From NCBI RefSeq assembly GCF_964213995.1, contig NC_135825.1, positions 12,524,001 to 12,588,000 of the forward strand: a stretch of DNA of 64,000 bases, written 5' to 3'. The translations under genes were made by a program, and so were the position numbers. Under the pieces are notes generated by a model. The model ran no database searches. It saw nothing but the letters and a program-made list of their open reading frames with translations, and was not told the origin of the DNA. Every line of letters begins with the position of its first letter. Position 1 is the first letter of the stretch. This DNA is from Mustelus asterias (lineage: Eukaryota). Positions 6,279-62,848 of this stretch are shown in pieces.

Positions 6279-6318
6279 ATGATGTGGATTTTGATTCTCC
6301 TCATTTGCTCTCTGCCCG
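6279..6318 (+). CDS. Gene 1 exon 1, signal peptide MMWILILLICSLP
   Basis: ATG, hydrophobic leader, phase-1 donor G|GTGAGT. Nearly identical to 40444-40480. Confidence 0.88.
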
Positions 6319-9300: not shown

Positions 9301-12300
9301 TGCACCTAGCCAGCACGACTTTCAGAATGTGGGAGGAAACCAGAGCACCCGGAGGAAACCCACGCAGACACGGGGAGAACGTGCAAACTCCACACAGACA
9401 GTGACCCAAGCCAGGAATCGAACCCAGGTCCCTGGCGCTGTGAGGCAGCAATGCTAACCACTGTGCTACCGTGCCGCCCCATGTCTATTTCTGTGTGCAA
9501 AACCTTTTGATGAGTGAAACCCCACAGTGTGAGGCAGAACCCCAATTTCCAGCTCCCCTACACTCTCCCAGCTCCTACCTGTGAGTCAAGAAAATACCCC
9601 AAATGTTTCAAAAGTAAACCGTTAACTGTGAAACACTTTGGGACACTCTGAGATTGTGAAAAGTTTCTATTTAAATGATTACGTTAATCACAAACTGCAT
9701 GGAATTTAACTCATTGGAATGTCTGTGTTTGAATGAAGCAGTCATTTCCTGTTCAATTCCTGAAATGTTGTCTCCTCAGTTTCAGATGCATTGTGGGCAG
9801 AAACGAAAGGACCAGGAATTGTGGGAAGATCGATCACAGTAAATTGTCACTATGATGCATGGTGGTACAAGGCACATTTTAAATATTGGTGTCACGGCAC
9901 AACTCGCCAGTGTAAAGTTGTAGCAAAGACAAATTGGCAAAATGGAAGAATTTCAATCACAGATGACAAGTCACGAGGAGTATTTGTTGTCACTGTGAAG
10001 GATCTTCGCTCAGGAGATGCAGGATGGTACAGCTGTGGTATTGAAAAAGCTGGTTTGGATCCAATGTGTCCTGTCGAGCTTCAAGTATCTGACGGTACAT
10101 TTCTCAGTCATTATCTTTATTCATCTCGACTGAAATGTTTGATCCATGTTTTATCCGTGGGGAAACAGAGACAGCTCTTATATCCCGAGCAGTGCAGAGT
10201 CTGGCAGCTAGAGGGCAGCGGTCGGGGAAACTGACTTATGTTCCATAAATCCAATGTCGGGAGCTCGCATTCAGAAAAAAAGTAAAATTCAGACAAAACA
10301 ACAGTTTCATGGTCATCAGTAGATTCTATATCCCAGTTACTTTTTATTGAATTTGAATTCTGCCATCTGCCATGGCAGGATTCAAACCCAGGTCCCCAGA
10401 ACATTCACTGAGTTTCCAAATAGTCTCGCAATAATACCATTAGGCCATCTCCTCCCCTCCAAAGAATTTAACAAGATCCACAGGCTTCCTGATATAATGG
10501 GTGACTCAGGATATTGAGGTCAAACGAACAGAGTTCAACTTTACAAGTGAATTAACCTGGAGTTGTCATGTTGTTTGGATGGTAAAAGCAGCCTCTTTAT
10601 TAACTGTTGAGACATTGGCCTCGATTTTCATTCCGGAGGCAGGTCCGGAGAATTTGGAAAATTCCCAACTCAACCTGCCCGCCTCGGGAGAAACTGCCCA
10701 CAAATGACGGGATCATCATTGCTGCGGGGGCAGGGGTGGGGGGTGTTGGTTGTGGACTGGATACAGGCCAGCTGGCAGAGGAAGATATGCACAGAGAGTC
10801 AAAGTTTAAAGAAAGTTTATTTATCAGTCACAAGTAGGCTTACATTAACATTGCAATGAAGTTACTGTGAAAATCCCCTAGATGGCTACACTCCAGCACC
10901 TGTTCGGGTACACTGAGGGAGAATTTAGCATGGCCAATGCACGTAACCAGCATGTCTTTCAGACTATGGGAGGAAACCAGAGCACTCGGAGGAAATTCAT
11001 GCAGACACAGGGAGAACGTGCAAATTCCAGACAAACATTGACCCAAGCCGGGAATCGAACCCAGGTCCCTGGCACTGTGAGGCAGCAGTGCTAACCACTG
11101 TGCCACTCAGTCTGATGAAAGGCTGTTTAAAATGTCCGCCTCATGTCATAGGACTTTGTCCCAGGAAAAACCAAGGGCCCTCCAGCCATCATCCCTCATA
11201 GCCCACAAAAGATGTGGATGGACGGAAAGGGCTTGGCTGGAAGGGGTAGTGGGGGCATAGGGGTTGGGTGGAAGGGCAGAGCAGAGCTCTGACTGGGTGT
11301 GGGTAAAGGGGCATTTGCTTCATGAGATCACATGGAGGGTGGCAGAGCGGACGAGGAGGACCTTTGTTTTTAACTTCGCTTAACTTAAAACGACTTGGTA
11401 AAAATTCTGCTCATTATCCCGAGCAAACCTCCAGATCAGAGTCAAAATCATCGCTATTTCCACAGGGGTTTCTTGAGATTTGTTCATGGGTAATGTTTTG
11501 ATTTTAGGAGCCTCTATTTTGATTTTTGGGTGTTCATTTTTCATTCTCATTTACTCCTTTACTCAGTGATGGAATTGTCAGATTAGATTCTGTATTCACA
11601 TTCATTTTTAGGGTTTCTTCCTTGCGCGTGTGTTTGTCGACATAATTGAAACTTTCAATTTTAACTCTAAAGAAAAGATAATACCTGTTCATTTATTGTA
11701 AATAAATTTCCCATACTTGATTTCCAAACTGAAGATTCAAGATACTCGCCAGAGGTAACTGATTAGGAATGATTCTCAGATGTGCAGCTCCTGGACAGCG
11801 GGAAGGGAGGAGGTGAAAGTCATCATAAATCCTCATAAAATCCCTACAGTACAGAAGGAGGCCATTCAGCCCATCGAGTCTGTACCGACCACAATCCCGC
11901 CTCCTATCCCCTTAACCCATACATTTACCCTGCGAATCCCCCTGACACTCAGGTCAATTTAGCATGGCCAGTTAACCTAACCTGCGCATCTTTGGACCGT
12001 GGGAGGAAAACGTAGCACCCGGAGGAAACCCACGCAGATGCGGGGAGAATGTGCAAATTCCACACAGACAGTGGCCCAAGGCCAGAATCGAACCTGGGTC
12101 CCTGGCGCTGTGGGGCAGCAGTGCTAACCTGTGCAGGTGTTGTAACTCCTGCTCCTGAATGGGAAGGTGTTTCCTCCACATTGCTAAAATTAAACTCATT
12201 GTAGAAATATCTGTCTGCTGTGCGGTTTGACAGTGCGACAGACTGACTGACTGACATTCTATTTTCACTGTCCAAGATCAGTTTATGTTTCTGCTGTCTG

Positions 12301-15300
12301 AGAATCTATCTGTGCTGCATCTCTCTTCGGAAAGCTGGTTTCAAAATGTAACATTTGACAGTGTTTTTACCAAACCCCCTGATCGTTGCAAAAACAGAAA
12401 AATGCTGCAAAATCTCAGCAGGTCTGACAGCATGTGGAGAGAGAATAGCGCCAACATTTCGAGTCTAGATGACCCTTGGTCAGAGCTGGCGAAGGGTCAT
12501 CTAGACTCGAAATGTTGGCTTTACTCTTGCTCCACAGGTGCGCTCAGTCCTGCAGAGGTTTTCCAGCATTTTTCTGTTCTTGTTTCAGATTCCAGCATCC
12601 GCAATATTTTGCATTTATCTCCTGATTAGCCCAGCACCAAAGAAACACACTTGCTAATATTCTGTGTCAAATGAAATACTTTCAGATTAAAAAATGGGTC
12701 TGTTGCAATCAGCAAAGTGGATGGAACCCATTCCGCTCTGTCGAAATTAAGTTAACTGGAAGCTGACGGTCTCTGGTTTTGGGTTTTACTAAGTTTATTG
12801 GAAAACTGCCCATTTCAGAAGGTGCTTCGAGATTTGGTAAATAGGTGCAGATTTTTTATTGTACAGCAAGGTGAAGAAGTAAAAACTCACACAATTCTGA
12901 TCATCATTGCCTTACATTCAAAACTCATTGGCTGCCTCATGACACCAGCGGTAATCAGCTCAGACCAGGGGCTCTATATATTGTTCGAGAGCATTAAGCA
13001 GCAAAGAACAATAGTTATTAAGAATAACTATAGTTTAACAATGTAAACCTGGACAAACGTATCTCAAAATCTCATTCAACATATGTGATCAGGACATGAG
13101 TTTGCAACACCTGTTTCCTGTGCTGCACACCAACCTTTTTCCAACCCACAACCTAAAATATCTAGTTCCTCATCAGAATGGAGAGAGCTCCAGACACATA
13201 GGGTGTGATCTTACCACCTGTTCACGCCACGCTCCCACTGCAGCGGGAAGGGAAAATCTTACTGGCATGAGCAGTCGGAAACTTCCGGCCGTAGTTCCGT
13301 TCCAGGACGACACAACTCACGTCTCACATAATGGATTGTAACAGGTTTGGAAATTTAAAAGGCTGAATGTGCCAATTCAGTGTAAGAGCTTTAACTGTTT
13401 ACATGCTGATTGCGAAGAACTCAGTCAGACAGATTTCACTCAGTTTCCACAGGAAACACTTTCCGTTCGGTTGAAATTAAGTTCACTGGAAATTGATGGT
13501 CTTTGGTTTTGAGTTTTAATAATTTTATTGGAAAACTGCCCATTTCAGCAGGTGCTTCGAGATTTGCGAAATAGGCACAAATCTTTTATTATACAGGAAG
13601 CTGCAGCAATAAAAACTCACACAATTCTGATCATCACTGACTTACATTCAAAAGTGAATGCGTGGACACTCGACACGAGGAAGAAATTTCCCAATGGGGC
13701 CTCATAAGGGTCTTGTTGCCATGCCAACTGGGGTTTTCAGTTGGCAATGCAGACAGGCCACATTGCCCGGTCTGGATCAGGGTCAGGCAGCTGTGGGATT
13801 TTCAAGGATAAAGTAAACTCACCCGGGCTTGCCCCTCGCTGTCTCCATTCTCAGATCAGCAACTCCCACCTCAGCCAGGTGAGACCCTCCAGCACCAGGA
13901 CCCCACCCACTCTCCCTGATTGGATGGTGAGCTCAGTCCCTGGCCTTTAATTGGCTGGAGCAGTGGAGATAGCAATGGGCATGCCTAAAGTGTGACGTGC
14001 GGTGTCTGGACCCAGACTGTCTCCCGTGTCCCGTTCCCAAACCCTGATTAAATATTTTTTTTAATTCATTCACGGGAGTTGAGCATCGCTGGCTGGCCAG
14101 TATTCATTGCCCATCCCTAGTTGCCCTTGAGAAGGTGATGGTGAGCTGCCTTCTTGAATCGCTGCAGTCCACATGCTGTGGGTTGATCCACAATGCCATT
14201 CGGGAGGGAATTCCAGGATTTTGACCCAGCGACTGCGAAGGAACGGCGATATATTTCCAAGTCAGGATGGTGAGTGGTTTGCAGATGGTGGTGTTCCCAT
14301 GTATCTGATGCCCTTGTCCTTCTGGATGGAATCAGTCATGGATTTGGAAGGTGCTGCTAAGGATCTTTGGTGAATTGCTGATCTTGTAGATGGTAAACAA
14401 TGCTGCTACTGAGTGTCGGTGGTGGAGGGAATGGATGTTTGTGCATTTGGTGTCAATCAAGCGGGCTGCTTTGTCCTGGATGGTGTCAATTGTGTTGGCA
14501 TCCACCCCATGGAGGGGTAGATGTCAGATTCCAACATGGCTGACCATGCCTGAGATTCTGAAGGGCAGAAAGTGGGAGAGTGTTTGATTTTTAGATGTTC
14601 GGTCAGTATCTAAATGTTTGTTTCTCCCCCACAGAACCCGTGTCTGTTCCTGCACTTAAATTTCTATCACCATCAAATGCCTCATGTTCTGGGGGCTCAG
14701 TGTCCGTCTCCTGTGAGTCTGTCCAGGGATCACTTCCCATTCGGTACACATGGTATGAAAAGACCCCGTCTGAAGATTCAAAGATCTCTGACGCCAATAA
14801 ACTGGATCTACATTGTCAATCCTTCACACAGCAACATCATCAATATTACTGCACAGCCTCAAATAACCAGGGAGAAAAATCCAGTGAAATGGTGAATGAG
14901 TCAGTGATCAACAGACCAGGGGAGAATTGCAGTTATGTGATACAAATAAACAGCATTGGTAAGTGTGACTGTAAATAAACCATTTGGTGATTGAATTTTT
15001 GAAGAAATGTTTCTCTCATAAGAGTTTCCGGCCAGAACGGGATTTGCACCCACAGTGGACAGGCCCAAATAATCACCCGTCCCCCACCCCTACCCCCACC
15101 TCCACAATGTCTAACTCTTGTGTCTGGATGGTGAATGATGTCAGAGACAAAAGAACAAAGGGAGGAATTAGGAGCATGTAACTAACGCAAATCGATATGG
15201 GACGTGTGTAATGCCCAACTCAAATAAGATGACAAACAAGTTCAATAATCCTTTATGAAAGAAGAGTGAAGAAAGCAAATTAATGAGGGTATGAGGAAAG

Positions 15301-18300
15301 GACAATGAAATGAGGTTAACTGGGGAGATCTTCCAGTGAACCAGCATTAAAGTGATGGCAGAATCTCCTCCCTCTGGGCTAGAAAATTCCATCATTCCAG
15401 AAAATTACCTTGTCCTAAAAATTAAATGTTTCAAATTCCACCCCCCCCCCCCCACCCCCCGCCCCCACCCCCGCAAAAAATATCCCTGCTTACAAAGAAC
15501 AAATAAAAGTACAGCACAGGAACAGGCCCTTCGGACATTCATCCCCTGCCAATCATGATGCCCCAACTAAATTTTTTTTAAAACCTTCTGTCCTTACTCA
15601 GTCCATATCCCTCCATTTGGTCCCTATTCATGCACCTATCCAGATGCCTCTTAAATGTTGTTAATGTGCCTGCTTCCACCATCTCCTCTGGCAGCGCGTT
15701 CCAGGCACCCACCACTCTGCATGAAAAACTTCCCCCAAACATCTCCCTTAAACTTTCTCCCCCTCACCGTGAATCTGTGCCCCCTTGTAATTGACACTTC
15801 CGCCTTGCAAAAAAGCCTCTGACTATCCACCCTGTCTATGCCACTCATAATTTTGCAGACCTCTATCAGGTCTCCCCTCAGCCTCCGTCTTTCCAGTGAA
15901 AACAATGCTAGTTTATTCAATCTCTCCTCATGGCCAACACCCTCGAGACCAGGCAACATCCTGGTGAACCTTCTTTGCACTCTCTCCAAAGCTTCCATGT
16001 ACATCTGGTAGTGTGGCGACCAGAACTGCACGCAATACTCCAAATGCGGCCTAACCAAGGTTTTATATAGCTGCAACATGATTTCCCAACTCTTGTACTC
16101 AGTGCCCCGGCCGATGAAGGCAAGCATGCCATATGCCTTCTTAATCACCTTGGCCACCTGTGTTGCCACTTTTAGCGAACTGTGGACCTGCACGTCCAGG
16201 TCTCTTTGTATGTTAATGTTCCTGAGGGCTCTACCATTGACAGTGCCATTCATGCCTGAATTTGATCCTCCAAAATGCATCACCTCGCATTTGTCCGGAT
16301 TAAACTCCATCTGCCATTTCTGTGTGCAAGTCTCCAGTCTATCTATATCTTGTTGTATCCTCTGACAATCCCCGGCACTATCAGCAACTCCACCAACCTT
16401 TGTGTCATCCATAAATTTACAAATCAGACCACCCACATTTTCCTCCAGATCATTTATATATACTACAAACAGCAGAGGTCCCAGCGCTGATCCCTGTGGA
16501 ATACCACGAGCTACAGATCTCCATTCTGAAAAACACCCTTCCACTTTAGTCTATGTGAATGTTGCAGTTTTGTTTTCTGCAGAGTGGGAGGAACACGTTT
16601 CCCAGTGGTTGTTCTGGTTAAAAACAAGCGCAAAATGGCCAGAAAGCGAAGAGAATTCCATTTGCCACTGGAGATTGTAAGAACTGCAAAAGCAAAGCTA
16701 TTTCTTTCTTACATTTTGGAACAAATGATTTACTAAAATGCTCTAAGATAATCAATGCCGACTGGAGGGTGGTTGGAGGAAGGGTGGATAGGAGAGGGTC
16801 TCCCACCGGCAACGTGGACCATTATAATTAAACTGGTTTGTGGTGTTCACGGCCAGTGAGTGAAGATTCCCTGCGTGACTGCAAGCTCAGAATACTGACC
16901 CCAAGTGACAGGAAATGACCGTTCTCAATGATGGCAAGTGACGGTTTAATGTCTTGATGAGAAATTGATGACAAAAAGGGGAATCTCTGGATTGAAATTC
17001 ACCAATCTGAGCTCATTACCTGACCCATGAGTAACTGTCTACCACCAACTCTCAGATATGGGAAATAAAATGAAATTTCCAGTAAAAATTGGCCAGATAT
17101 CAGCCGCTTCTCTATTGCGACCAGACGGGGGGATAATTACACAGAAATCAGACCTTTCCTCAAGCACTGAAGTTCCATTTCACAATGACGCTCTCTCAGT
17201 TGACTACAAGTGAAAATGAGGTGAATCTGAATGTTATTCTTATGTTTCAACAGAACCTAAATATTCATGTGAAGTTTCTACAACAGAATCACCAACTACA
17301 ACACATTCCACAAGTACAAATATCATTTCCACTGGTAGCTACAGCGAATCTTCAGAGTTGGAAAATGATGAAAGGTACAATGTTCTCATTGGGGGTGTAC
17401 TGATTAGCACGGATTTCTATGTAACGGATGAAATGTTCTTTAACACATTTGGCCTAAAGGAGACAACGTTGTTTATTGTTTTGTAATGTGGCTGATCAGA
17501 ATGGAAATGGTGGCCGGGCTCACATCGTGCTGTTGTGTCAGCATTCTAATGAAGGTCCAATTCTTTGTCATTGGAAATTACAAATAAGGGGCAGAATTGT
17601 CTTGCCCAGTGTTTCCCACTGCACAGCTCAATGGGAAGCCAGGCCTTATCTTCCATCCAATAGGGTGGCATGGTGGCACAGTGGTTAAAACTGCTGCCTC
17701 ACAGCGCCAGGGACCCAGGTTTGATTCCCGGCTTGGGTCACTGCCTGTGCGGAGTCTGCACACTCTCCCCATGTCTGCATGGGTTTCCTCTGGGTGCTCC
17801 GGTTTCCTCCCACAGTCCAAAAGACGTGCTGGTTAGGTGCATTTGCCATGCTAAATTCTCCCTCAGTGCACTCAAACAGGCGCCAGAGTGTCGCAACTAG
17901 GGGATTTTCACAGTAACTTCATTGCAGTGTTAATATAAGTTTCCCTATGACTAATAAATAAACTTTAATTTTTTTTTACTGTGCAATTAATTTTGTATCT
18001 GGGGGTTTTGCACCATCTTCCCTGGCAGGGTGGGCTTGAGGGCATGTGTCCCACTATCATATCCGGGTGACATATTGTAAGGGCATCAGGTATCACTGAG
18101 TTATCATTGAAGAAAGAGGATGGATCTCTTGAAGAAAGAAAATGGACCTCCAGAAACACTCTGAGGCTGGAAGATGGACAGTGTCACTGATGCTGGAAGA
18201 CCCACCTGATAGATGCTTCGCCCACCCATTGATATGGTGTTCCAGGAGCCAGGGTCACGAGCGGACTCCATCACAACCTCTGAAGGCAGCCCCAGGCCTT

Positions 18301-21300
18301 GTTCAGGTCTTGAATTTTCATGCCACGCTGGACCAGACGTGTTCTGGACTGGTGTGTGTGTTCCCACTGGCATAGCAGAGAATTGGACATCGGGGGGAGT
18401 TTCCAGTTGGCCTTTCATTTGCATCCCAGCAGCGAGATGCAGCTTAGTTACATGCCTGCCTCCAGTGGGATTCCTGATCTGTTTTGTTGGGCGGGCGTAA
18501 TTGAAAGATCCTGGGTGGGATTCTCCGGCCACACCCGTCCCAAAACTGGAGAATCCCGCCCGAGTTTAATGGACCTTTGTGTGGTCCCCCCCCACCTCTC
18601 ACCCCAACCCCCCACTGCCCGCTACGATTCCCGTGGCGGGCGGGATGGAAGAATTTACCCTCCCTCGCTTTAAATTTACGCTGGGATGAAATTCATTTTT
18701 GCATCTCCCGCCAAATTTTCCCTTCTCCCACCCACCATTGATCCCGCCAGGATGGGGGTGAGCATGGGAGAACTCCACACATAGAGTGAGCGTCTGTATT
18801 GTGTTGGCTTTCAGGTGGTGTTTTTTGCATTTGTTACCTTGGTCAACTCACCGGTAACCTTGGCCGGAATTCTCCAATCTCACCCGCGGCCGGAATTATC
18901 CAGTCCCACTGCTGTGAATGGAGATTTGGCCGAGCGCCAAATTTTCCATTCTCACCGGCAGTGGTTCCAGGGTGCGCGAGACCGGAGAATTTGAGCTCTA
19001 ATCTCACGGTGTGTGATGAGTTGGTATCAAGCTTACATTGCCGCGATCTACACTGACAGAGTAGTTGCTTTTCTGCTGGTGACAGGGAGGAATTAGGGTG
19101 ATTTATCCAAACAATCACTGGAATCGCTGGTATGTGGGAAGCATCTTGCAGCATTGGGGTCTTATTCCCATTTTATTAACTCAAGCTGTCTGCAATCATC
19201 AGCACAATTGTGCTCTGATATGAACATTGAGGAATTGGGTCTTTGAAGTTACCATGGTGATAAAGAATAAACACCAACTAAATGTCCAGCGGAGACTGTT
19301 GGAAACAGACAGCCGGTAAATCCGCACCTGAGGAGATAATAGACACATTTATCATTTGGGTGTGGACACTTCACGCCCGAACCTAAACAAATCCATTCAC
19401 CCCACAGATGCCGACTGACCAGGTGAGATATCCCAGAAACTTCTGTTTTTCATTCACATCTCTGGCACATGCAGTGTATTTATTTTGAACCAGATTAGCA
19501 TTAATAATGTGAGAAGGGAACTTTACAGGAATAGGGCCTGGGTGGGACTGTGGTCGGTGCAGACCCAATGGGCCAAATGGCCTCCTTCTGCACTGTAGGA
19601 TTCCATGATATGTTTTCTATGCAGTATTGAATGATTATGGATTTTACTTGATGACATTTCTCTGTGTCTGTTCTGTTGTATAAATTTAACAATGATGGTC
19701 ATCTGAATATAAGATCTATATCGTGTATGAAAGTGTTGTTGCTTCTATTTTTTCACAGATGATAAGGTGAAATTTCCTGAGTGTATTAAGCAGAGCTCAG
19801 TACTGCACTGTCACTGACTGTGTCAGAGGTTGTGGCTTCACTTCCCCTGCAGAGGATGAGCACATTAACTCAGGTGGACGTAACAGATCCCATGGTGTCA
19901 TTCAGAGAAGAGAAGGCCAGTTCTCCCTGAGCAATATTCAGCCCTAAAAGAGTCATCCTGACTCGAAAGGTTAACTCTGCTCTTCTCTCCACAGATGCTG
20001 CCGGACCTGCTGAGAATTTCCAGCATTTTCTGTTTTTAAAACAATGTATTTGCCCATTTATCTAATTGTTGTTTGTGGGAGCAGGCTGTGTGCAAATAAA
20101 ATTGCCAGGTTTGTCACGTTACAACAGTTCCTGTGCACCAAAATGATTTCATTGTCTGTAAAGTGCTTTGGGATGTCCTGAGGGAATTAAAACAACTTTA
20201 TGAATGCCACCCTTGAAATATTTCTTTAACCGAATGGCCATGAATCAATTGTGAACCTGCACTGACCCTTTCCTATTCTCTGTATCACAGTCTGATTCAC
20301 ATTGTGGTCGCAGTGCTGGGGGCCATTCTTATCGTGTTGGTTGTTTCTCTCCTGTTGTACCTGAGGCAAAACAACAAGGGTGAGATTTTATTTCTCTTTA
20401 ATCATTTCATTATATGTCAGTAACTTGTCACAGAAAATAAAGAATATATAAGTTGTTATATGAATCAATAAACAGCTATGATTGTGGTATTCTCATCCTA
20501 GTCAAAACAAATTGAACATGGAAGAATAATTCAGTTGCATATCTTTTGATTTGATTTGATTCATTATTGTCATATCTGTTGGGATATAGTGAAAGTATTG
20601 TTTCTTGCATGCTATACAGACAAAGCATACCCAAAGCACACGCACTCTCTCGTTTCCTTCTCTTTAAACAGTATGTTTTGTCCGTATAGCGCGCAAGAAA
20701 CAATGCTTTTCACTATATGCTAATACACGTGACAATAATAAATCAAATTAAATCAAATCAAATCAAGATCATAGAGTACATTGGGGAGAAGGAAAGGAGA
20801 GAGTGCAGAATATAATGTTACAGTCATAACTAGAGTGCAGAAAAAGATCAACATAATATATGGTAAGTCCATTCAAAAGCAGAGAAGAAGCCGTTCTTGA
20901 GTTGGATGGTCCGTGATATCAAACGGTTGGTACATGAATATTAAGAACTTAAGAACATAAGAACTAGGAGCAGGAGTAGGTCATCTGGCCCCTCGAGCCT
21001 GCTCCGCCATTCAATAAGATCATGGCTTCACGGACTCAGCTCCACTTACCCTCCCGCTCACCATAACCCTTAATTCCTTTACTGTTCAAAAATGTATCTA
21101 TCCTTGCCTTAAAAACATTTAATGAGGTAGCCTCAACTGCTTCACTGGGCAGGGAATTCCACAGATTCACAACCCTTTGTGTGAAGAAATTCCTCCTCAG
21201 CTCAGCCCTAAATCTGTTCCACCTTATTTTGAGACCATGCCCCCTAGTTCTAGTTTCACCGCCAGTGGAAACAACTTCCCTGCTTCTATCTTATCTACTC

Positions 21301-24300: not shown

Positions 24301-25098
24301 GTGGGGGTGTCAAGAACCAGGGGTCAGAGTTTCAGGAAATGGGGTAAATCACTTAGGGCTGAGATGAGGAGAAATATCATCATGCAGAGAGTGGTCAGCC
24401 TGTGGAATTCTCTACCACAGAAAGCATTTGAGGACAACACATTGTATGTTTTCAAGAAGAAGTTAGATATAGCTCTTGGGGCTCATGGGATCAAAGGATA
24501 TGAGGGGAGAACAGGTTACTGAGTTGGAGAATCAACCATGAATGATGGAGCAGACTCGAAGGGCTGAATGGCCTACTCCTCCTATTTTCGGTGTTTTTAT
24601 GTTTAGGATCAGAAGTGAATAATAATGGGAAGATACATTGGGCTGAATTGATTGTAAATAATTTACGATAACTTGCAATACTTTATAACCTGATACATAA
24701 TAATTGATAAATAGCTTCCATCTCATAACAGCGCAAACCACCACTCAGGTTAATCAGAAATAAATGTGATCTTTTTGTTATTTTAGCAGTTGGCAGCATT
24801 GGAAGAGAGCATTGTGTATGCAAAGATAAACCACGTTGGCAGGAACGCAGCAGGAACGCACAGAGAGGGAAACGCCCCGTTGGATAATGATGAAATCACA
24901 TATGCAGCAGTGCAGTTTCAGAACAACACGTCTACACGGAGAGGTGAAGTGTCACGTCACTCAATTAACAACCCAGACAGTGTCATCTACAGCGCTGTCA
25001 GCATTCCGAGCCAGCCAGCACAGAGAAACCCAGAGACTCCAAGACTGGACACTCCACAGGAATCCGAAATGACAATTTATGCTAACTTCACTCATTAG
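6279..25098 (+). CDS. Receptor gene 1 (spliced, 7 exons: 6279-6318, 9780-10094, 14635-14958, 17254-17374, 20291-20379, 22998-23050, 24787-25098): CD300/pIgR-like (CMRF35-like/MDIR-like) inhibitory Ig-superfamily receptor, ~417 aa
   Basis: All introns GT-AG with compatible phases (1,1,1,2,1,0). Exon lengths sum to 1254 nt with no internal stop. Every exon has a counterpart in gene 2. Domains: signal peptide, V-Ig, C2-Ig, S/T stalk, TM, ITIM tail. Confidence 0.9.
8866..9128 (+). mobile_element. CR1 LINE internal fragment
   Basis: YETKLAANI..CKSFYKYVKRKR...ADELNLYFASVF. Confidence 0.8.
9780..10094 (+). CDS. Gene 1 exon 2, CD300/pIgR-type V-set Ig domain
   Basis: Acceptor tctcctcag|. Motifs ITVNCHY, KYWC..C (C-C' cysteine pair), RISITD, DLRSGDAGWYSCG. 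Donor G|GTACAT. Confidence 0.92.
12388..12612. mobile_element. Palindromic Penelope-type terminal-repeat remnant (second family)
   Basis: Inverted arms around gacccttggtcagagctggcgaagggtc. Absent at the paralogous site in gene 2 (~48067). Confidence 0.65.
14058..14490 (-). mobile_element. LINE (CR1/L2 group) 3' fragment; related copies at ~8520-8860, ~10305-10455, ~57797-58158, ~62035-62390
   Basis: Minus-strand DTIQDKAARLI peptide. Shared end cattcgtggg...gcatttattgcccatccctagttgccc across copies. Confidence 0.6.
14635..14958 (+). CDS. Gene 1 exon 3, C2-type (FCRL-like) Ig domain
   Basis: Acceptor tctcccccacag|. Motifs PVSVP, VSCES.QGSLPIRYTWY, YYCTASN..G..SSE.V. Donor G|GTAAGT. Confidence 0.9.
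15490..16544 (-). mobile_element. CR1 LINE 3' fragment (RT)
   Basis: 297-aa ORF with GIPQGSALGPLLF, DDTKVGG, VRPHLEYCVQFWSP. Confidence 0.93.
17254..17374 (+). CDS. Gene 1 exon 4, Ser/Thr-rich (mucin-like) stalk EPKYSCEVSTTESPTTTHSTSTNIISTGSYSESSELENDE
   Basis: Acceptor gtttcaacag|, donor AG|GTACAA, phase 1 to 2. This frame is not in the ORF track. Paralogous to 52194-52308. Confidence 0.85.
18513..18660. mobile_element. Short GC-rich MITE (same family at ~52658-52783 and, inverted, ~59073-59200)
   Basis: Imperfect TIRs gggtgggattctcc / ggaagaatttaccc and shared interior among copies. Confidence 0.6.
19860..20210 (+). mobile_element. Old SacSINE1/Deu-SINE-like element (paralogous copy ~54025-55790, others ~25910-26130 and ~27365-27650)
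   Basis: tcaggtggacgtaa..gatcccatgg, ttgtttgtgggagc...tgtgtgcaaat, aaagtgctttgggatgtcctgagg. Family recognised from memory. Confidence 0.55.
20291..20379 (+). CDS. Gene 1 exon 5, transmembrane SLIHIVVAVLGAILIVLVVSLLLYLRQNNK
   Basis: Pyrimidine tract then cacag|. Hydrophobic run of about 22 aa followed by a basic residue. Donor G|GTGAGA, phase 2 to 1. Confidence 0.88.
20945..21360 (-). mobile_element. CR1 LINE 3' end
   Basis: (aagaacat)n tail and the CR1 3' region seen in other copies. Confidence 0.8.
22998..23050 (+). CDS. Gene 1 exon 6, juxtamembrane GSSGILYCRRDKAPRDNL
   Basis: Acceptor atttttcag|, donor |GTAAGG. A 53-nt phase 1 to 0 exon is needed to link the TM and last exons. Same-length copy at 60957-61009. 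Confidence 0.83.
23779..23990. mobile_element. Palindromic Penelope-derived mini-element inserted in a CR1 fragment
   Basis: Inverted arms. 11-bp TSD ttcatagcaag (23768-23778, 23991-24001). Confidence 0.82.
23904..23938 (+). ncRNA. Minimal type I hammerhead ribozyme motif
   Basis: cac-CTGATGA-a-ggagc(agc)gttcc-GAAA-gc-TC-gtg. Confidence 0.62.
24787..25098 (+). CDS. Gene 1 exon 7, cytoplasmic tail with ITIMs IVYAKI, ITYAAV, VIYSAV and terminal TIYANF
   Basis: Acceptor ttttag|cag| (24787 or 24790). ORF 24790-25098 ends in TAG. Confidence 0.9.
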   Translation, partial: QLAALEESIVYAKINHVGRNAAGTHREGNAPLDNDEITYAAVQFQNNTSTRRGEVSRHSINNPDSVIYSAVSIPSQPAQRNPETPRLDTPQESEMTIYANFTH

Positions 25099-43400: not shown

Positions 43401-46400
43401 CTCAGCCGGCATCTAAATCCCTACCTAAGACCTCCGGCCATCCTCCAAGGCCACCAATCCCGTGCACCATCACCGAGGTCGGCAATCTTCACCTCCTGAA
43501 ATCCCAAACCTACCCAAGATCTGAGTACCCCCCTCCTGCCAGGATTTAATGTGTGAGTCACATCCCATCCCTACTGCCTACACCACCTCTCAGGTCAGAT
43601 CAAGGACCTCTTTGCTCCTGTCATCTCCTCCGGCTGCTCCCCAACTAACTGCAAGTTGGACCCGTCAATTAGGTTTGTTTCTGGGTCTGAAACCTCTTGA
43701 GGATGTCTCACAATCACACTCTGGAGTGAAGGCCCACAGTGTGAGGCAGAACCCCAATTTTCAGGCCCCCCCGCCCCCCATCCCTGCTCCCCCAGTCCCT
43801 GTCAGTGGGTCAGGAAAATACATCAAATATTTTTTAAAAATAAATCCTTGAGAGAAATGCTTTGGGACACTATGAGACTGTGATAAATGTCTATATTAAT
43901 GTTTATGTTCATCACAAGCTGCATGGAATTTAACTCATTAGAATGTCTGTGTTTGAATGAAGCAATTATTCCCTGTTCAATTCCTGAAATGTTGTCTCCT
44001 CAGTTTCAGGTGCATTGTGGGCAAAAAAGGAAGTGAGAGGAATTGTGGGAAGATCGATCACAATCGATTGTAACTATGGTGCAGAGTACCGGTCACACGT
44101 GAAATATTGGTGTCGTGGCTGGACTCGCCAATGTGCTGTTGTAGCAACAACAAATCAGCAAAATGGAAGAATATCAATCACAGATAACAAGTCACGAAGA
44201 GTATTTGTTGTCACTATGAAGGATCTTCGCTCAGGAGATGCAGAATGGTACAACTGTGGAATTGAAGCATCCGGTCTCGATCCATTGTATAACGTAAAAC
44301 TACAAATATCTAACGGTGCGTTATTCTCAGTGATTATCTTTATTACTTTTGACTGAAATCTCTGATCAATGGCCAGAATTTTATGTATAAAGATCAGGCG
44401 TGTGCCCTACCCGAATGTGGGTAAAATCACACCCTGACGGCAATATGCCTTCTCTCAATATTTCAGTCGCCAGGCACATGCGCAAGTCGGAAGTGCGGCT
44501 GCCAGCCATGCAAAAGTCAATTTAAATTCATTAAAAACCAATTGTCCAGGACTTTAAGTTGCCCGTCTGCCTTTACAGTTGGCGGGTGGGCCAATTGGCC
44601 AGGTGACCTTTACATTTTAGCTGCAACCTCGATCCAGGGCGGAATGAAAGGTCAGGGTTCATATTAAAGTAAGAAATGTGTCTGGGGCCTGAGTTGTGTG
44701 TGTGATCGTGCTGCCCTGACACTCGCGGTATCGTTTTAACATTGATATTTTTCACAGGTCAACAGCTCCCTGAGACAGCTCCACAGTGGCTCTTCCCCCA
44801 TTCATTGGACAGTCAGTGTGGAACTGTGCTTCGGGGCTGAGGTTTCGTACCCGCGTCCAGACTCGCTGAGTGCACACACACACTACGAGCACACACTACG
44901 AGCAAAAGGTTCAGGCCATGCTTTTCTCTGAGAGGAAACATTGACAGCTCCGGTATCCCAAGGGTCCACTGCAGTGCAGACTCTGGCAGCTAGAGGGCAG
45001 AAGTCGGGAAATCTGACTCACACAAAACCCAATTCCTGCTCTTTCCAACTTGTCAAACTGTCAGGTGTTTGCTTTCGGATTAAAACTAAAAGACAAAAAG
45101 CCCCATGTTGGGTGCTTAATTTGTGGGCGGCGCAGTGGTAGGTGCTGCTGTCTCACAGCACCAGGCACCCTGGTTCAATTCCGGCCTTGGACAACTGTGT
45201 GGAGTTTGCACGTTCTCCTCGTGTCTGCATGGGTTTCCTCCGGGTGCTCTGGCTTCCTCCCACAGCCCAAAGATGTGCAGGTTAGTTGGATTGGCCATGC
45301 TAAATTGCCTCTTAGTGCCCCAAGATGTGTAGGTTAGAGGGATTAGTCATGGTTAAAGTGTGGGGTTACAGAGATAGGGCAGGGTGGTGGGCCTGGGTGG
45401 GAAGCTCTTTCGGAGAGTTCGCGCAGACTCGATGGGCCGAATGGCCTCTTTCTGCACTGTAGGGATTCTAAAACACTGAATAGCTCGTCACTCCTGATGG
45501 TGTAAATTCCTTGAATATAATAAAATAGAATAAATACACAGAAATTAACAGGATCCATAGGCCTGAATTATTGGGATAGCGTAGGGTCAGCCACACCATC
45601 CGGAGAATGGCGGAGATTACACCCTGGTCTACTCCAGCTGCTCCACTGCAGATTAACATTGAGCAGTGTTCGCGAGTGCCGCCCATTCGCCTTGAAGGAA
45701 GAGGCGCCACATATTCAGGCGGGGGTGGGCGGGGAGGGGGGGGTAAGTGGTGGTGCCGAGTTGCTCTGTCCCGGCTGCTGACTGTGTGGTGCTGGGGCAG
45801 AAGCTGCCCTATGGGTGGAGCAAGAGGGGTGGGGATTCAGCACGGTCTGATGGCAGTGCACAAGCACATGTGTGAGGTGGGTGGGGGGACAGGGAATCAG
45901 CCCCACTTTGAGGAAAGCTTGCATAAGGTGTGCATTATTCCGCAGCTCAGACAGTTCATCGCAACTCAGTTGACCTGCTTGGAGTCGGGCAAGAACCAGC
46001 TTTCCATGTGAGATCTTTTCTACCCAAGTGTAGAATTGCTGCAAGATCGGGAAGGGTGAGAATTCAGAGGGAATCCTGTCCCTCCAATTTGACTCCCCCT
46101 TACATAAAAAACAGCCAGGGGGGTTAGTGTAAAAATCTGTCCACAGGCTTCCTGATATGATGGGCGACTCACATTTCACCAAGATGCTTAGGTCAGCCGA
46201 ACAGATTTCAGCTTTACAAGAGAACTAAAAAGGAATTGAAAAGTTGTTTTGATGATTAAAAGAAGCCGCTTCATTCATTGTTGAAATGTTGAGATGTTGG
46301 CCTGGTGGAGGGATAGGTCCATGCTGGGGTTTGGCCTGCCAACCCAGGAAGAAATGCAACAGGGGCTGCCAGGGGAAGGGGGAGGGGGGCTGTTGTAAAT

Positions 46401-53500: not shown

Positions 53501-56500
53501 TACTGGCCAGAATTCGCCCCCAAAAATTCTAACTGTCGAATTCAGGTCAAAACTGGAGTAATTAACGTTGGTTTATTCAGTGGGAGTTCAGAGAAGAATC
53601 TCCCACGCTCTGTACACTGCAGAGGCCACCGGTGTGAATATCCTTAAAAACTAGGGGGCAGGGCCTACCCCCGCTGGAGAGGTTGAGACCAGCACGCTGA
53701 GTGGGCCACTGCGCATGCGCCGACCTGTCAGTGCTGAGATTGCCGGCCTCCCAACTGCTGGCCAGCTCAATTGCTGGCAACCTCCACAATCCCCGCAGTG
53801 CCGGCTCCCTGCAGCCCCCCATGGCCTGATCGCTGGCCCCCTGACCGTTCCCGGACGCAGCCCTGACCCCCCCCCTTTCTGGCCCGCCCCGATCTCCAGC
53901 CCCCACCCCCTGCAGTGAAATTTCCTGAATGTATTAAGCAGAGCGCAGTGTTGCACTGTCACCTGCTGCGTCAGAGATTGTGACTTCACTTCCCTTCCAA
54001 AGAATGAGCGCATTAACTCGGCTAACACTCCAGTGCCATACTGAGGGAGTGCTGTGCTGTTAGAGTGTCCTCCTTTCAAATGTGATAAACCCAGGGCCCC
54101 ATCCGCTCTATCAGGTGGACTTAACAGATCCCATGGTGACATTCATAAAACAGGGCAATTTTCCCTGGAGCCCGGGACAATATCATTAAACGAAACAATT
54201 TATCTGTCCATTTATCTAATTGTTGCTTGTGGGAGCAGGCTATGTGTAAATTAACTGTGATGTAGAGATGCTGGCATTGGACTGGGGTAAACACAGTAAG
54301 AAGTTTAACAACACCAGGTTAAAGTCCAACAGGTTTATTTGGTAGCAAAAGCTACAAGCTTTCGGAGCCTTAAGCTCCTTCTTCAGGTGAGTGGCAATTC
54401 TGTTCACAAACAGGGCATATAAAGACACAAACTCAATTTACAGAATAATGGTTGGAATGCGAATACTTACAGCTAATCAAGTCTTAAAGGTACAAACAAT
54501 GTGAGTGGAGAGAGTGTTAAAGAAGCCATCCGCTACGGACAAGCCCTCCGTATACACAGGATCTGCTCGGATGAGGAGGATCGCATCAGACACCTCCAGA
54601 CGCTGAAAGATGCCCTCATAAGAACAGGATATGGCGCTCGACTCATCGATTGACAGTTCCGACGCGCCACAGCGAAAAACCGCACCGACCTCCTCAGAAG
54701 ACAAACACGGGACACGGTGGACAGAGTACCCTTCGTCGTCCAGTACTTCCCCGGAGCGGAGAAGCTACAGCATCTCCTCCGGAGCCTTCAACATGTCATT
54801 GATGAAGACGAACATCTCGCCAAGGCCATCCCCACACCCCTACTTCTTGCCTTCAAACAACCGCACAACCGCAAACAGACCATTGTCCGCAGCAAACTAC
54901 CCAGCCTTTAGGAGAACAGTGACCACGACACCACACAACCCTGCCACAGCAACCTCTGCAAGACATGCCAGATCATCGACACGGATGCCATCATCTCACG
55001 TGAGAACACCATCCACCAGGTACACGGTACATACTCTTGCAACTCGACCAATGTTGTCTACCTGATACGCTGCAGGAAAGGATGTCCCCGAGGCATGGTA
55101 CATTGGGGAAACTATGCAGACGCTGAGACAACAGATGAATGAACACCGCTCGACAATCACCAGGCAAGACCGTTCTCTTCCTGTTGGGGAGCACTTCAGC
55201 GGTCACGGGCATTCGGCCTCTGATATTGGGGTAAGCGTTCTCCAAGGCGGCCTTCATGACACACGATGGCACAAGAGTCGCTGAGCAGAAACTGATAGCC
55301 AAGTTCTGCACACATGAGGACGGCCTCAACCGGGATATTGGGTTCATGTCACACCATCTGCAATTCCCACAGCTTGCCTGGACTTGCAGACTCTCACTGG
55401 CTGTCCTGTCTGGAGACAATACACATCTCTTTAACCAGTCTTAATGCTCTCTCCACTCACATTGCTTGTACCTTAAAGACTTGATTAGCTGTGAGTATTC
55501 GCATTCCAACCATTATTCTGTAAATTGATTTTGTGTCTTTATATGCCCTTTTTGTGAACAGAATTCCCACTCACCTGAAGAAGGAGCTTAAGGCTCCGAA
55601 AGCTTGTGGCTTTTGCTACCAAATAAACCTGTTGGACTTTAACCTGGTGTTGTCAAACTTCTTACTGTGTAAATTAATTGCCAGGTTTGTCATGCTACAA
55701 CAGTTCCTGTGCCCCAAAATGATTTAATTGTCTGCAAAGTGCTTTGAGATGTCCTGAGGAATTAAGACAACTTTATAAATGCCTTCCTTGAAATATATTT
55801 TTAATCGAATAGCCATGAATCAATTGTGAACCTGCACTGACCCTTTCCTATTCTCTGTATCACAGTCTGGTTTTCATTGTGGTCGGAGTTCTGGGGGGCA
55901 TTTTTGCCGTGTTCGCTGTTTCTCTACTGTTGTACCTGAAGATCAACAAGGGTGAGTTTCTATATCTCTTTAATCATTTCATTTTATATCAGTAACTTGT
56001 CGCAGAATATAAAGAATATATAGTTTGTTGCATTAATCAACAATCACCTCTGATCATCGTATTCTCATTCGAGTCGACACATATTGAATATGGAAGAATA
56101 ATTAAGTTGAGTCTTGCTGAAAAAAGAGACATGAGGCAGAATTCTCCCATCTGGGACTGAGGCTGGAATTCTCCAGCCATTCACGCCCTGTTGCCGCTGC
56201 CAGCAAGAAGGGGGAATTTGGAGAATCCCAGCAGTGGGCGAGGTCGGAGAATTCGACCCTAAGCCTGGTGGTGGGACGGGAACAGGGAGTGATTCCCACT
56301 GAGGATGACAACAGGAAACTACGCCGTATCTTCAGGCTCTGAATACATTAATTATGCAACCAGTGATTTAGCCCCGTATTCTGTGGTGAGGGGTGGGAGG
56401 GTTGGGTATGATAGTGCACCTCCTTCATCACATCTGGCTGCCATAGTTAAAAGGTGCCCCACATCACTGACCCACTGTGGAAGAAATAAGGTAGACCTCC

Positions 56501-62500: not shown

Positions 62501-62848
62501 GAAATAAATAAATGTGATTTTTCTTTGTTATTTTAGCAGTTGGCAGCATTGGAAGAGAGCATTGTGTATGCAAAGATAAACCACACTCAAAGGAACGCAG
62601 CAGGAATGCACAGAGAGGGAAACGCCCCGTTGGATAATGATGAAATCACATATGCAGCAGTGCAGTTTCAGAACAACACGTCTACACGGAGAGGTGAAGT
62701 GTCACGTCACTCAATTAACAACCCAGACAGTGTCATCTACAGCGCCGTCAGCATTCCGAGCCAGCCAGCACAGAGAAACCCAGAGACTCCAAGACTGGAC
62801 ACTCCACAGGAATCCGAAATGACAATTTATGCTAACTTCACTCATTAG
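40444..62848 (+). CDS. Receptor gene 2 (spliced, 7 exons: 40444-40480, 44004-44315, 50491-50811, 52194-52308, 55866-55951, 60957-61009, 62537-62848): paralog of gene 1, ~411 aa
   Basis: Same exon architecture and phases as gene 1. Exons sum to 1236 nt with an open frame. The assembly gap at 48995-49152 is intronic. Confidence 0.9.
41085..41700 (-). mobile_element. CR1 LINE 3' end(s) in gene 2 intron 1
   Basis: ORF 41307-41690: YEERLSRLGLYSLEFRRLRGDLIETYKI...QRVVNLWNSLP. Confidence 0.9.
41777..42117 (+). mobile_element. tRNA-derived V-SINE/HE1-like SINE, tail type A, CR1-like (further copies: 1570-1919-, 8180-8505-, 11835-12128-, 22243-22578-, 28050-28365+, 29315-29485-, 45125-45470+, 46412-46616-, 47175-47495-, 61285-61530-, 61645-61992-, 63118-63285+)
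   Basis: Same head and core as type B. Tail gggccaaatggcctccttctgcactgtaggg(attctatg)n resembles the 3' ends of the CR1 copies. Confidence 0.88.
44004..44315 (+). CDS. Gene 2 exon 2, CD300/pIgR-type V-set Ig domain
   Basis: Acceptor tctcctcag|. Motifs ITIDCNY, KYWCRGWTRQC, DLRSGDAEWYNCG. Donor G|GTGCGT. Confidence 0.92.
47520..47645. repeat. (GT)n microsatellite
   Basis: Direct reading. Confidence 0.9.
48907..48994. repeat. (CA)n microsatellite abutting the gap
   Basis: Direct reading. Confidence 0.9.
48995..49152. other. Assembly gap (158 N)
   Basis: Run of N. Confidence 1.
50491..50811 (+). CDS. Gene 2 exon 3, C2-type (FCRL-like) Ig domain
   Basis: Acceptor ttccccacag|. About 90% aa identical to gene 1 exon 3. 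Donor G|GTAAGT. Confidence 0.9.
51300..51825 (-). mobile_element. CR1 LINE RT fragment
   Basis: NPDKCEVMHFG, ALERVQKRFTR. Confidence 0.87.
52194..52308 (+). CDS. Gene 2 exon 4, Ser/Thr-rich stalk EPTYSCGVSTTESPTTTHSTSTNINSAGSESSELENDE
   Basis: Same splice sites as 17254-17374, with a frame-preserving 6-nt deletion. Confidence 0.85.
52480..52978 (-). mobile_element. CR1 LINE 3' end with a ~125-bp MITE inserted at ~52658-52783
   Basis: Similar to 4839-5220. The insert has gggtgggattttcc...gggaaaattcaaccc termini. Confidence 0.72.
54258..55665 (+). mobile_element. 5'-truncated Penelope-like element with ~230-bp inverted terminal repeats, in gene 2 intron 4
   Basis: RT C-terminus (PYGQALRIHRICS) and GIY-YIG region (NVVYLIRCRKGC). 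About 54293-54520 is inverted against about 55440-55668. Flanking direct repeat tgtgtaaattaa. Confidence 0.9.
55572..55608 (+). ncRNA. Minimal type I hammerhead ribozyme motif (inverted copy at 54353-54389)
   Basis: cac-CTGAAGA-a-ggagc(ttaag)gctcc-GAAA-gc-TT-gtg. Confidence 0.62.
55866..55951 (+). CDS. Gene 2 exon 5, transmembrane SLVFIVVGVLGGIFAVFAVSLLLYLKINK
   Basis: cacag| acceptor and G|GTGAGT donor. Frame-preserving 3-nt difference from gene 1. Confidence 0.88.
56555..56855 (+). mobile_element. CR1 LINE 3' end
   Basis: SKTRGHRFEV...FTKRVVSVWNKLP. Confidence 0.82.
58633..58885. mobile_element. Palindromic Penelope-type terminal-repeat remnant (second family)
   Basis: aaccaaaagagaaaatgctggaaaatctcagcagg inverted against cctgctgagattttccagcattttctcttttggtt. 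Same family as 12388-12612, 19945-20036 and 49395-49490. Confidence 0.65.
59503..60220 (+). mobile_element. Probable solo LTR in gene 2 intron 5 (contains a ~90-bp Penelope fragment at ~59800-59885)
   Basis: TG...CA termini flanked by direct repeat AATTAA (59497-59502, 60221-60226). AATAAA at 60053. No counterpart in gene 1. Confidence 0.6.
60452..60793 (-). mobile_element. Rex1/Babar-type LINE 3' end (related degenerate copy at ~20548-20930)
   Basis: KAASIIKDPAHSGYSLFHLLPSGKRYKSLRSRTNRLKNSFF. (tttga)n tail. Confidence 0.75.
60957..61009 (+). CDS. Gene 2 exon 6, juxtamembrane GSSGILCHRRDKTLHDNQ
   Basis: tttttcag| acceptor, |GTAAGG donor, 53 nt. Confidence 0.83.
62537..62848 (+). CDS. Gene 2 exon 7, cytoplasmic tail with three ITIMs and terminal TIYANF
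   Basis: ORF 62540-62848. Three aa differences from gene 1 exon 7. Confidence 0.9.
   Translation, partial: QLAALEESIVYAKINHTQRNAAGMHREGNAPLDNDEITYAAVQFQNNTSTRRGEVSRHSINNPDSVIYSAVSIPSQPAQRNPETPRLDTPQESEMTIYANFTH

What the first reader, a model, noticed from the sequence alone, without database searches (positions are those of the whole stretch)
9780..14958. Mosaic ectodomain: CD300-type V domain joined to an Fc-receptor-like C2 domain
Seen: D1 carries the KYWC-x6-C pair typical of CD300/pIgR/FCMR V domains. D2 reads PVSVP.L...G.SV.VSCES.QGSLPI.Y.WY...YYC.ASN..G..SSE.V..SV. Known: mammalian CD300s have one V domain and pIgR has only V domains, while PVS.P.L / CE...GS.PI.Y / SE.V.L.V is the pattern of FCRL membrane-proximal C2 domains (recalled). 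Inference: exon shuffling of phase 1-1 Ig exons combined two lineages that are separate in mammals. This could bear on Ig-binding receptors in cartilaginous fish.
Basis: partly seen in the sequence, partly recalled or inferred. Interest (0 to 1): 0.7.

Follow-up and report, generated by a model that had tools for sequence, protein, structure and literature searches.

The report
Shark inhibitory MDIR paired receptor
These two exons encode the outer part of a shark immune receptor of a family already known from skates (MDIR); its two-domain unit also occurs from bichir to crocodiles, and it likely works as a brake on immune cells that senses membrane lipids rather than antibodies.

Summary
The two phase 1-1 exons encode a CD300-like V domain and a C2-type domain of a 7-exon, 417-aa receptor with four cytoplasmic tyrosine motifs. 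D2 is 77% and 73% identical to skate MDIR3 and MDIR5, which are built of the same V-C2 unit; an elephant-shark 'MDIR2' has this gene's exact layout. The genome holds 55 such C2 exons in one 0.7-Mb cluster, 53 directly after a V exon. D2's best solved-structure match is FCRL5, but in trees it forms its own clade, not nested in FCRL. Added here: the same V-C2 unit occurs in bichir, gar, teleosts, coelacanth, amphibians and crocodilians, so the join is ancestral to jawed vertebrates; a neighbouring gene shares a 97% identical V domain but has an activating-type anchor; D1 keeps CD300lf's calcium/lipid loop and lacks pIgR's Ig-binding loop. The scan noted this family before in another genome (e1-9598217).

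The parts
6279..6318 (+). Gene 1 exon 1, signal peptide
   Evidence: ATG to GT donor, phase 0-1; near-identical leaders precede each neighbouring gene
9780..10094 (+). Gene 1 exon 2, CD300-like V domain (D1)
   Evidence: Pfam V-set; CD300f best by sequence and fold, Z 17.7, rmsd 1.7, 104 aligned; 56% identical to an MDIR3 V domain
14635..14958 (+). Gene 1 exon 3, MDIR-type C2 domain (D2) with three extra cysteines and an extra C-terminal strand
   Evidence: 77%/73% to MDIR3/MDIR5; extra Cys conserved 98%, 96% and 58% in 250 domains; extra strand in the model
17254..17374 (+). Gene 1 exon 4, Cys-bearing Ser/Thr-rich stalk
   Evidence: stalk Cys co-occurs with the third extra C2 Cys in 60 of 65 domains
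20291..20379 (+). Gene 1 exon 5, uncharged transmembrane segment
22998..23050 (+). Gene 1 exon 6, short cytoplasmic exon
24787..25098 (+). Gene 1 exon 7, tail with three ITIM-consensus motifs and one ITSM-like motif, then stop
   Evidence: aligns with the MDIR3 tail, 30% over 101 aa
40444..62848 (+). Gene 2, intact paralogue of the same layout (411 aa; V 44004-44315, C2 50491-50811, TM 55866-55951, tail 62537-62848)

Best explanation
The exons encode the V and C2 domains of a modular domain immune-type receptor (MDIR) with an uncharged anchor and four tyrosine motifs, which likely acts as the inhibitory half of a paired receptor on shark leukocytes. Shown: gene structure, family membership, and a neighbour with a 97% identical V domain, an Asn-x-x-Arg anchor and a short tail. 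Inferred: D1 binds a calcium-bridged membrane phospholipid head group (or a microbial mimic) through its CD300-type FG/CC' pocket; the disulfide-stiffened C2 plus stalk is a spacer; the phosphorylated tail recruits SHP-1/2 and dampens activation, while the neighbour signals through an FcR-gamma-type adaptor. The V-C2 pair is the unit of duplication, and exons are exchanged between neighbours.
For: Membership: MDIR3 = VVCVC-TM, MDIR5 = VCVC, 253 V-to-C2 junctions in 120 proteins; MDIR3 accession ABC86797.1 matches the one cited in PMC3031540; elephant-shark MDIR2 AFK11143.1 is V-C2-TM-tyrosine tail. Pairing: upstream gene V 101/104 aa identical (dS 0.015) but C2 88/107 (dS 0.16), while C2 and tail are closer to gene 2 (dS 0.06, 0.02); the NxxR anchor was shown to associate with FcR-gamma in Xenopus receptors (PMC2413239 passages). 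Ligand: D1 aligns without gaps to CD300lf Lys94, Gly96, Asp98, Met100, the residues that hold Ca2+ and phosphocholine (PMC6166816 passages); the C-C' disulfide pair is present. SHP1 recruitment is reported for comparable fish ITIM receptors (PMC8662705 passages).
Against: No binding, expression or signalling data. CD300lf Trp89 is Ser in D1. The Asp98 equivalent is kept in only 57% of 249 family V domains and the loops around it are among the most variable positions, so many members may bind other ligands. Two of the three CD300lf metal contacts are backbone carbonyls, so Lys and Gly identity is weak evidence. Only one of five structure models was confident (pLDDT 86.9 against about 60). An FcR-gamma adaptor was reported as not found in shark genomes in 2014 (PMC4016189); I did not search for it.
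Confidence: 0.7

Rival explanations
1. The receptor is a shark Fc or polymeric-Ig receptor: D1 or D2 binds IgM, IgW or IgNAR and the tail gives inhibitory feedback, as FCRL5 does.
For: D2's best structure hit is FCRL5 (profile 44.1 bits, E 1.8e-10 for one domain). D1 belongs to the CD300/pIgR/FCMR V group. The cluster lies on the contig that also holds markers of the human PIGR region (human order recalled). A 2026 review calls shark Fc receptors an open question (PMC13337447 passage).
Against: pIgR binds through CDR1 Asn30/Arg31/His32 (PMC7707832 passages); 0 of 249 MDIR V domains have that motif. D1 fits CD300lf better than pIgR D1 (Z 17.7, 39% against 14.9, 25%). The cluster is about 7 Mb from the PIGR slot. 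The genome has separate FCRL-like genes on another contig, and those, not D2, group with FCRL/MILR1 domains (93/83, unstarred). Dozens of diverging V domains fit a variable ligand better than a constant Fc.
Confidence: 0.12
2. The V domains recognise pathogen surface proteins or polymorphic self proteins, and the lipid-loop likeness is a relic.
For: Large, young, reshuffled cluster with activating and inhibitory twins; highest variability in CDR1, CC' and FG loops; CD300lf itself is used as a virus receptor through this pocket.
Against: dN is not above dS for the gene 1/gene 2 V pair (0.19 against 0.30). The Asp-Ile/Pro-Met loop is kept from sharks to crocodilians.
Confidence: 0.3
3. The two exons belong to one long six-domain receptor, as in the RefSeq model P0012, not to a separate 417-aa gene.
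For: P0012 joins three V-C2 units to gene 2's tail; all Ig exons are phase 1-1, so skipping keeps the frame; true multi-cassette genes exist in the cluster.
Against: Each of the three units has its own leader, anchor and tail exons with intact frames; a horn-shark protein has the single-unit layout (P0088).
Confidence: 0.1

Closest known systems
Modular domain immune-type receptors (skate MDIR3 ABC86797.1, MDIR5 ABC86800.1; elephant-shark MDIR2 AFK11143.1)
   Same: Same leader, V and C2 domains (56% and 77% to MDIR3), V-C2 module, ITIM tail, activating and inhibitory forms, multigene cluster.
   Different: Single V-C2 unit against 2-3 V and 2 C2 in MDIR3/5; four tyrosine motifs; the genome also has a gene with 11 tandem units.
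Mammalian CD300f/CD300a (CLM-1, IRp60)
   Same: V fold with extra C-C' disulfide, FG-loop Lys/Gly/Asp/Met, stalk, ITIM/ITSM tail, paired receptors.
   Different: CD300s have no C2 domain (recalled); D1 lacks Trp89; markers that flank human CD300 (Tweety, EBP50_C; order recalled) are not on this contig.
FCRL5/FCRL4 membrane-proximal domains, MILR1/PECAM-type and CD22-type C2 domains
   Same: Shared N-terminal, B-C and G-strand motifs; FCRL5 is the top PDB hit.
   Different: D2 has three extra cysteines and an extra strand not seen in the FCRL alignments, and forms its own clade (99/96).
pIgR / FCMR / FCAMR
   Same: Same V-domain superfamily; same ancestral chromosome by marker genes.
   Different: No CDR1 Asn-Arg-His motif; alternating V and C2 instead of V only; inhibitory tail.

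Membership tests
MDIR | Domains orthologous to named MDIR proteins | tested here: met
   D2 77%/73% to MDIR3/5; D1 56% to MDIR3 V; C2 tree clade 95/85 with MDIR3
MDIR | Modular ectodomain of V and C2 units | tested here: met
MDIR | Multigene family with activating and inhibitory members | tested here: met
   55 C2 and 53 close V exons in 0.7 Mb; Arg-anchor and ITIM genes side by side; description in PMC3031540 passages
MDIR | Definition as in Cannon et al. 2006 | not testable with these tools
   paper not held; its content is recalled only
CD300 | V domain with second C-C' disulfide and FG-loop metal site | tested here: met
   Trp89 not kept
CD300 | Single V ectodomain | tested here: not met
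   V plus C2
CD300 | Locus beside TTYH2 and NHERF1 (recalled) | tested here: not met
   no Tweety or EBP50_C match on this contig; one EBP50_C hit is on an unplaced contig
CD300 | Phospholipid binding | not testable with these tools
   needs an assay
FCRL | D2 nested in or sister to FCRL domains | tested here: inconclusive
   own clade 99/96; FCRL grouping p-AU 0.32 and 0.28; CD22 grouping 93/75
FCRL | Ectodomain of C2-type domains only (recalled) | tested here: not met
   N-terminal V domain
pIgR/FCMR/FCAMR | CDR1 Asn-Arg-His Ig/J-chain-binding loop | tested here: not met
   0 of 249 V domains; motif role from PMC7707832
pIgR/FCMR/FCAMR | Position between EIF2D and C1orf116/PFKFB2 (recalled) | tested here: not met
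   markers at 19.48, 20.66, 20.73 Mb; cluster at 11.87-12.58 Mb of the same contig

The most novel reading that the evidence does not exclude
The V-C2 unit is the ancestral jawed-vertebrate form of the CD300/TREM/pIgR lipid-sensing receptors: it expanded to dozens of copies in cartilaginous fish, survives as an overlooked, conserved Arg-anchored activating receptor from bichir to crocodilians, and was lost or cut down to one V domain in mammals.
Probability: 0.35. Interest if true: 0.55.

Novelty: new member of a known kind. Interest (0 to 1): 0.27.

Why it matters
As filed, it is one more MDIR gene. The useful additions are a testable ligand (calcium-bridged phospholipid), a near-identical activating twin next door, and evidence that the V-C2 unit predates the shark/bony-fish split and persists in unnamed genes of amphibians and crocodilians. 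If the rival Ig-binding reading held, it would answer how sharks handle antibody Fc, which a 2026 review lists as open.

Tried and rejected
RNA support: no RNA holder listed for this DNA and no reads could be laid, so splicing in this species is open. Single-sequence fold of P0088 was unusable (pLDDT 39.6). The fold search was filled by D1 and says little about D2. IL10 family search found nothing, also in controls. Homolog search for the lone V exon at 20.02 Mb found none. Atlas search of D2 tied C17orf99-type, FCRL2, and generic C2 clusters at 0.93-0.94. Scan of 19.89-20.66 Mb of C25 found only one V exon, so no multi-V pIgR there; 19.48-19.89 Mb was not scanned. Cannon 2006 and one review were not held. 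Ten paper searches found only PMC3031540 describing MDIRs; this does not show that the bony-vertebrate relatives are undescribed. No complex prediction was run. No supplements were read.

Full report
Observation. The two coordinates bound real exons. With five more exons found by hand they give an intact 417-aa type I receptor: leader, V, C2, Ser/Thr stalk, uncharged anchor, and a tail with three ITIM-consensus motifs and one ITSM-like motif; all introns are GT-AG. A second intact gene of the same layout lies at 40444-62848. D1 is V-set and closest to CD300f by sequence and by fold of a V-C2 model (pLDDT 86.9 for the best of five models; Z 17.7, rmsd 1.7, 104 aligned, against 14.9 for pIgR D1). 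D2's best PDB match is FCRL5.

Family. A search with D2 gave 142 proteins, 120 listed; all named ones are from sharks, rays, skates or chimaera, and they include skate MDIR3 (77%) and MDIR5 (73%). With profiles built from these hits, MDIR3 reads V-V-C2-V-C2-TM and MDIR5 V-C2-V-C2; 115 of 120 have a V directly before a C2, with 253 such junctions against 19 V-V and 8 C2-C2 (the set was chosen by the C2, and some models fuse neighbouring genes). An elephant-shark record named MDIR2 has V-C2-TM-tyrosine tail like gene 1. [quoted passage not shown] The original paper was not held; that it noted likeness to FcR homologues is my recall.

Locus. The window is at 12.52-12.59 Mb of contig C25. All 55 C2 matches and 53 of 63 V matches lie in 11.87-12.58 Mb; nine diverged V exons follow to 12.98 Mb and one lies at 20.02 Mb (counts are lower bounds). 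53 of 55 C2 exons follow a V exon on the same strand. One gene has 11 tandem V-C2 units before a single anchor and tail, one V carrying stops. The RefSeq model P0012 contains both exons letter for letter but fuses three genes that each have their own leader and tail.

Paired receptor. The gene just upstream of the window has a V domain 101/104 identical to D1, an Asn-x-x-Arg anchor and a short tail without tyrosine motifs. Gene 1's C2 and tail are instead closest to gene 2. So gene 1 is itself a recent patchwork, which fits exon exchange between neighbours (inference). In Xenopus the NxxR anchor associates with FcR-gamma (PMC2413239 passages).

Ligand. D1 aligns gap-free to CD300lf Lys94, Gly96, Asp98 and Met100, which hold Ca2+ and phosphocholine (PMC6166816 passages); Trp89 is not kept, and Asp98 is kept in 57% of 249 family V domains. 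pIgR binds through CDR1 Asn30, Arg31, His32 (PMC7707832 passages); none of 249 V domains has that motif. Lipid sensing is therefore the better-supported guess, but it is untested.

What D2 is. It carries two extra cysteines kept in 98% and 96% of 250 domains and a third kept in 58%; the third goes with a stalk cysteine in 60 of 65 terminal domains against 44 of 109 internal ones (sequences are related, 49 terminal domains without a stalk cysteine left out of that test). Extra disulfides and an added strand are inferred. A profile search (477 hits, 150 listed) found the same cysteine pattern in 24 diverged proteins, 16 with a V just before it. Of 13 looked up, one is elephant shark and 12 are bichir, paddlefish, gar, arapaima, halosaur, a percomorph, coelacanth, caecilian, newt, two frogs and crocodilians; none is a bird or mammal. 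Several keep the Arg anchor and an Asp-x-Met FG loop. In a 49-row tree (15 rows of the first 56-row tree dropped, 8 I-set outgroup rows added) these and the shark domains form one clade (99/96), outside FCRL; its sister is unresolved (CD22-like 93/75; FCRL/MILR1 not rejected, p-AU 0.32). The alignment has only 99 columns, and most reference rows were grouped by likeness to the few that were named. The V tree has no mammalian rows and does not resolve whether the bony and shark V domains are sisters.

Synteny. C25 carries a FOXP gene (1.9 Mb), NFYA (9.78 Mb), an EIF2D-like gene (19.48 Mb), C1orf116 (20.66 Mb) and a PFKFB gene (20.73 Mb), which flank the human TREM and PIGR loci (recalled). Tweety and EBP50_C genes, which flank human CD300 (recalled), are on other contigs. 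The cluster thus shares a chromosome with both loci but sits in neither slot. FCRL-like and MILR1/C17orf99-like exons exist separately on C5 and C12.

Verdict. A new member of the known MDIR family, most likely an inhibitory paired receptor. The domain join is real but ancient and ordinary for the family. Interest 0.27; the ancestral-cassette reading would merit more if synteny and a wider search confirm it.

Noticed in passing
G000:C25:20024542-20024925 (L024:4542-4925, minus strand): A lone V exon of the pIgR/CD300 type lies between EIF2D-like and C1orf116/PFKFB markers, the slot of human FCMR/PIGR/FCAMR (order recalled). It lacks the B-strand cysteine; a possible Lys-bearing anchor exon lies 8 kb downstream. 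No other V exon in 19.89-20.66 Mb.
   Followed up: partly
G000:C5:146.56 Mb (L040; P0121, P0122): FCRL-like genes with four to six Ig domains, one with a tyrosine-motif tail, 0.4 Mb from a Tweety gene; reviews say cartilaginous fish lack FCRL genes.
   Followed up: partly
G000:C12:102.91-102.93 Mb (L019, L020): Three Ig exons that group with turtle MILR1/Allergin-1 domains (98/99).
   Followed up: partly
G000:C25:12025404-12081461: One gene with 11 tandem V-C2 units and an ITIM-type tail; one V exon has two stops.
   Followed up: partly
window 6279-62848 and upstream: RefSeq model XP_078098257.1 fuses three adjacent genes into a six-domain 'pIgR-like' protein; many long database relatives show internal leaders or anchors and may be similar fusions.
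   Followed up: partly
G000:C25:12443155-12541000: A roughly 58-60 kb duplication: a copy of gene 1's leader, V and a 100% identical C2 lies upstream, followed by a partial C2 and another V-C2 with an Arg anchor instead of the ITIM tail.
   Followed up: partly
window about 10067-10069: D1 has an extra, probably unpaired cysteine in the G strand where 82% of the family has Phe.
   Followed up: no
G000:C25:12.63-12.98 Mb (L011-L018): Nine diverged CD300/pIgR-type V exons without an MDIR-type C2 within the 10-kb stretches read.
   Followed up: no
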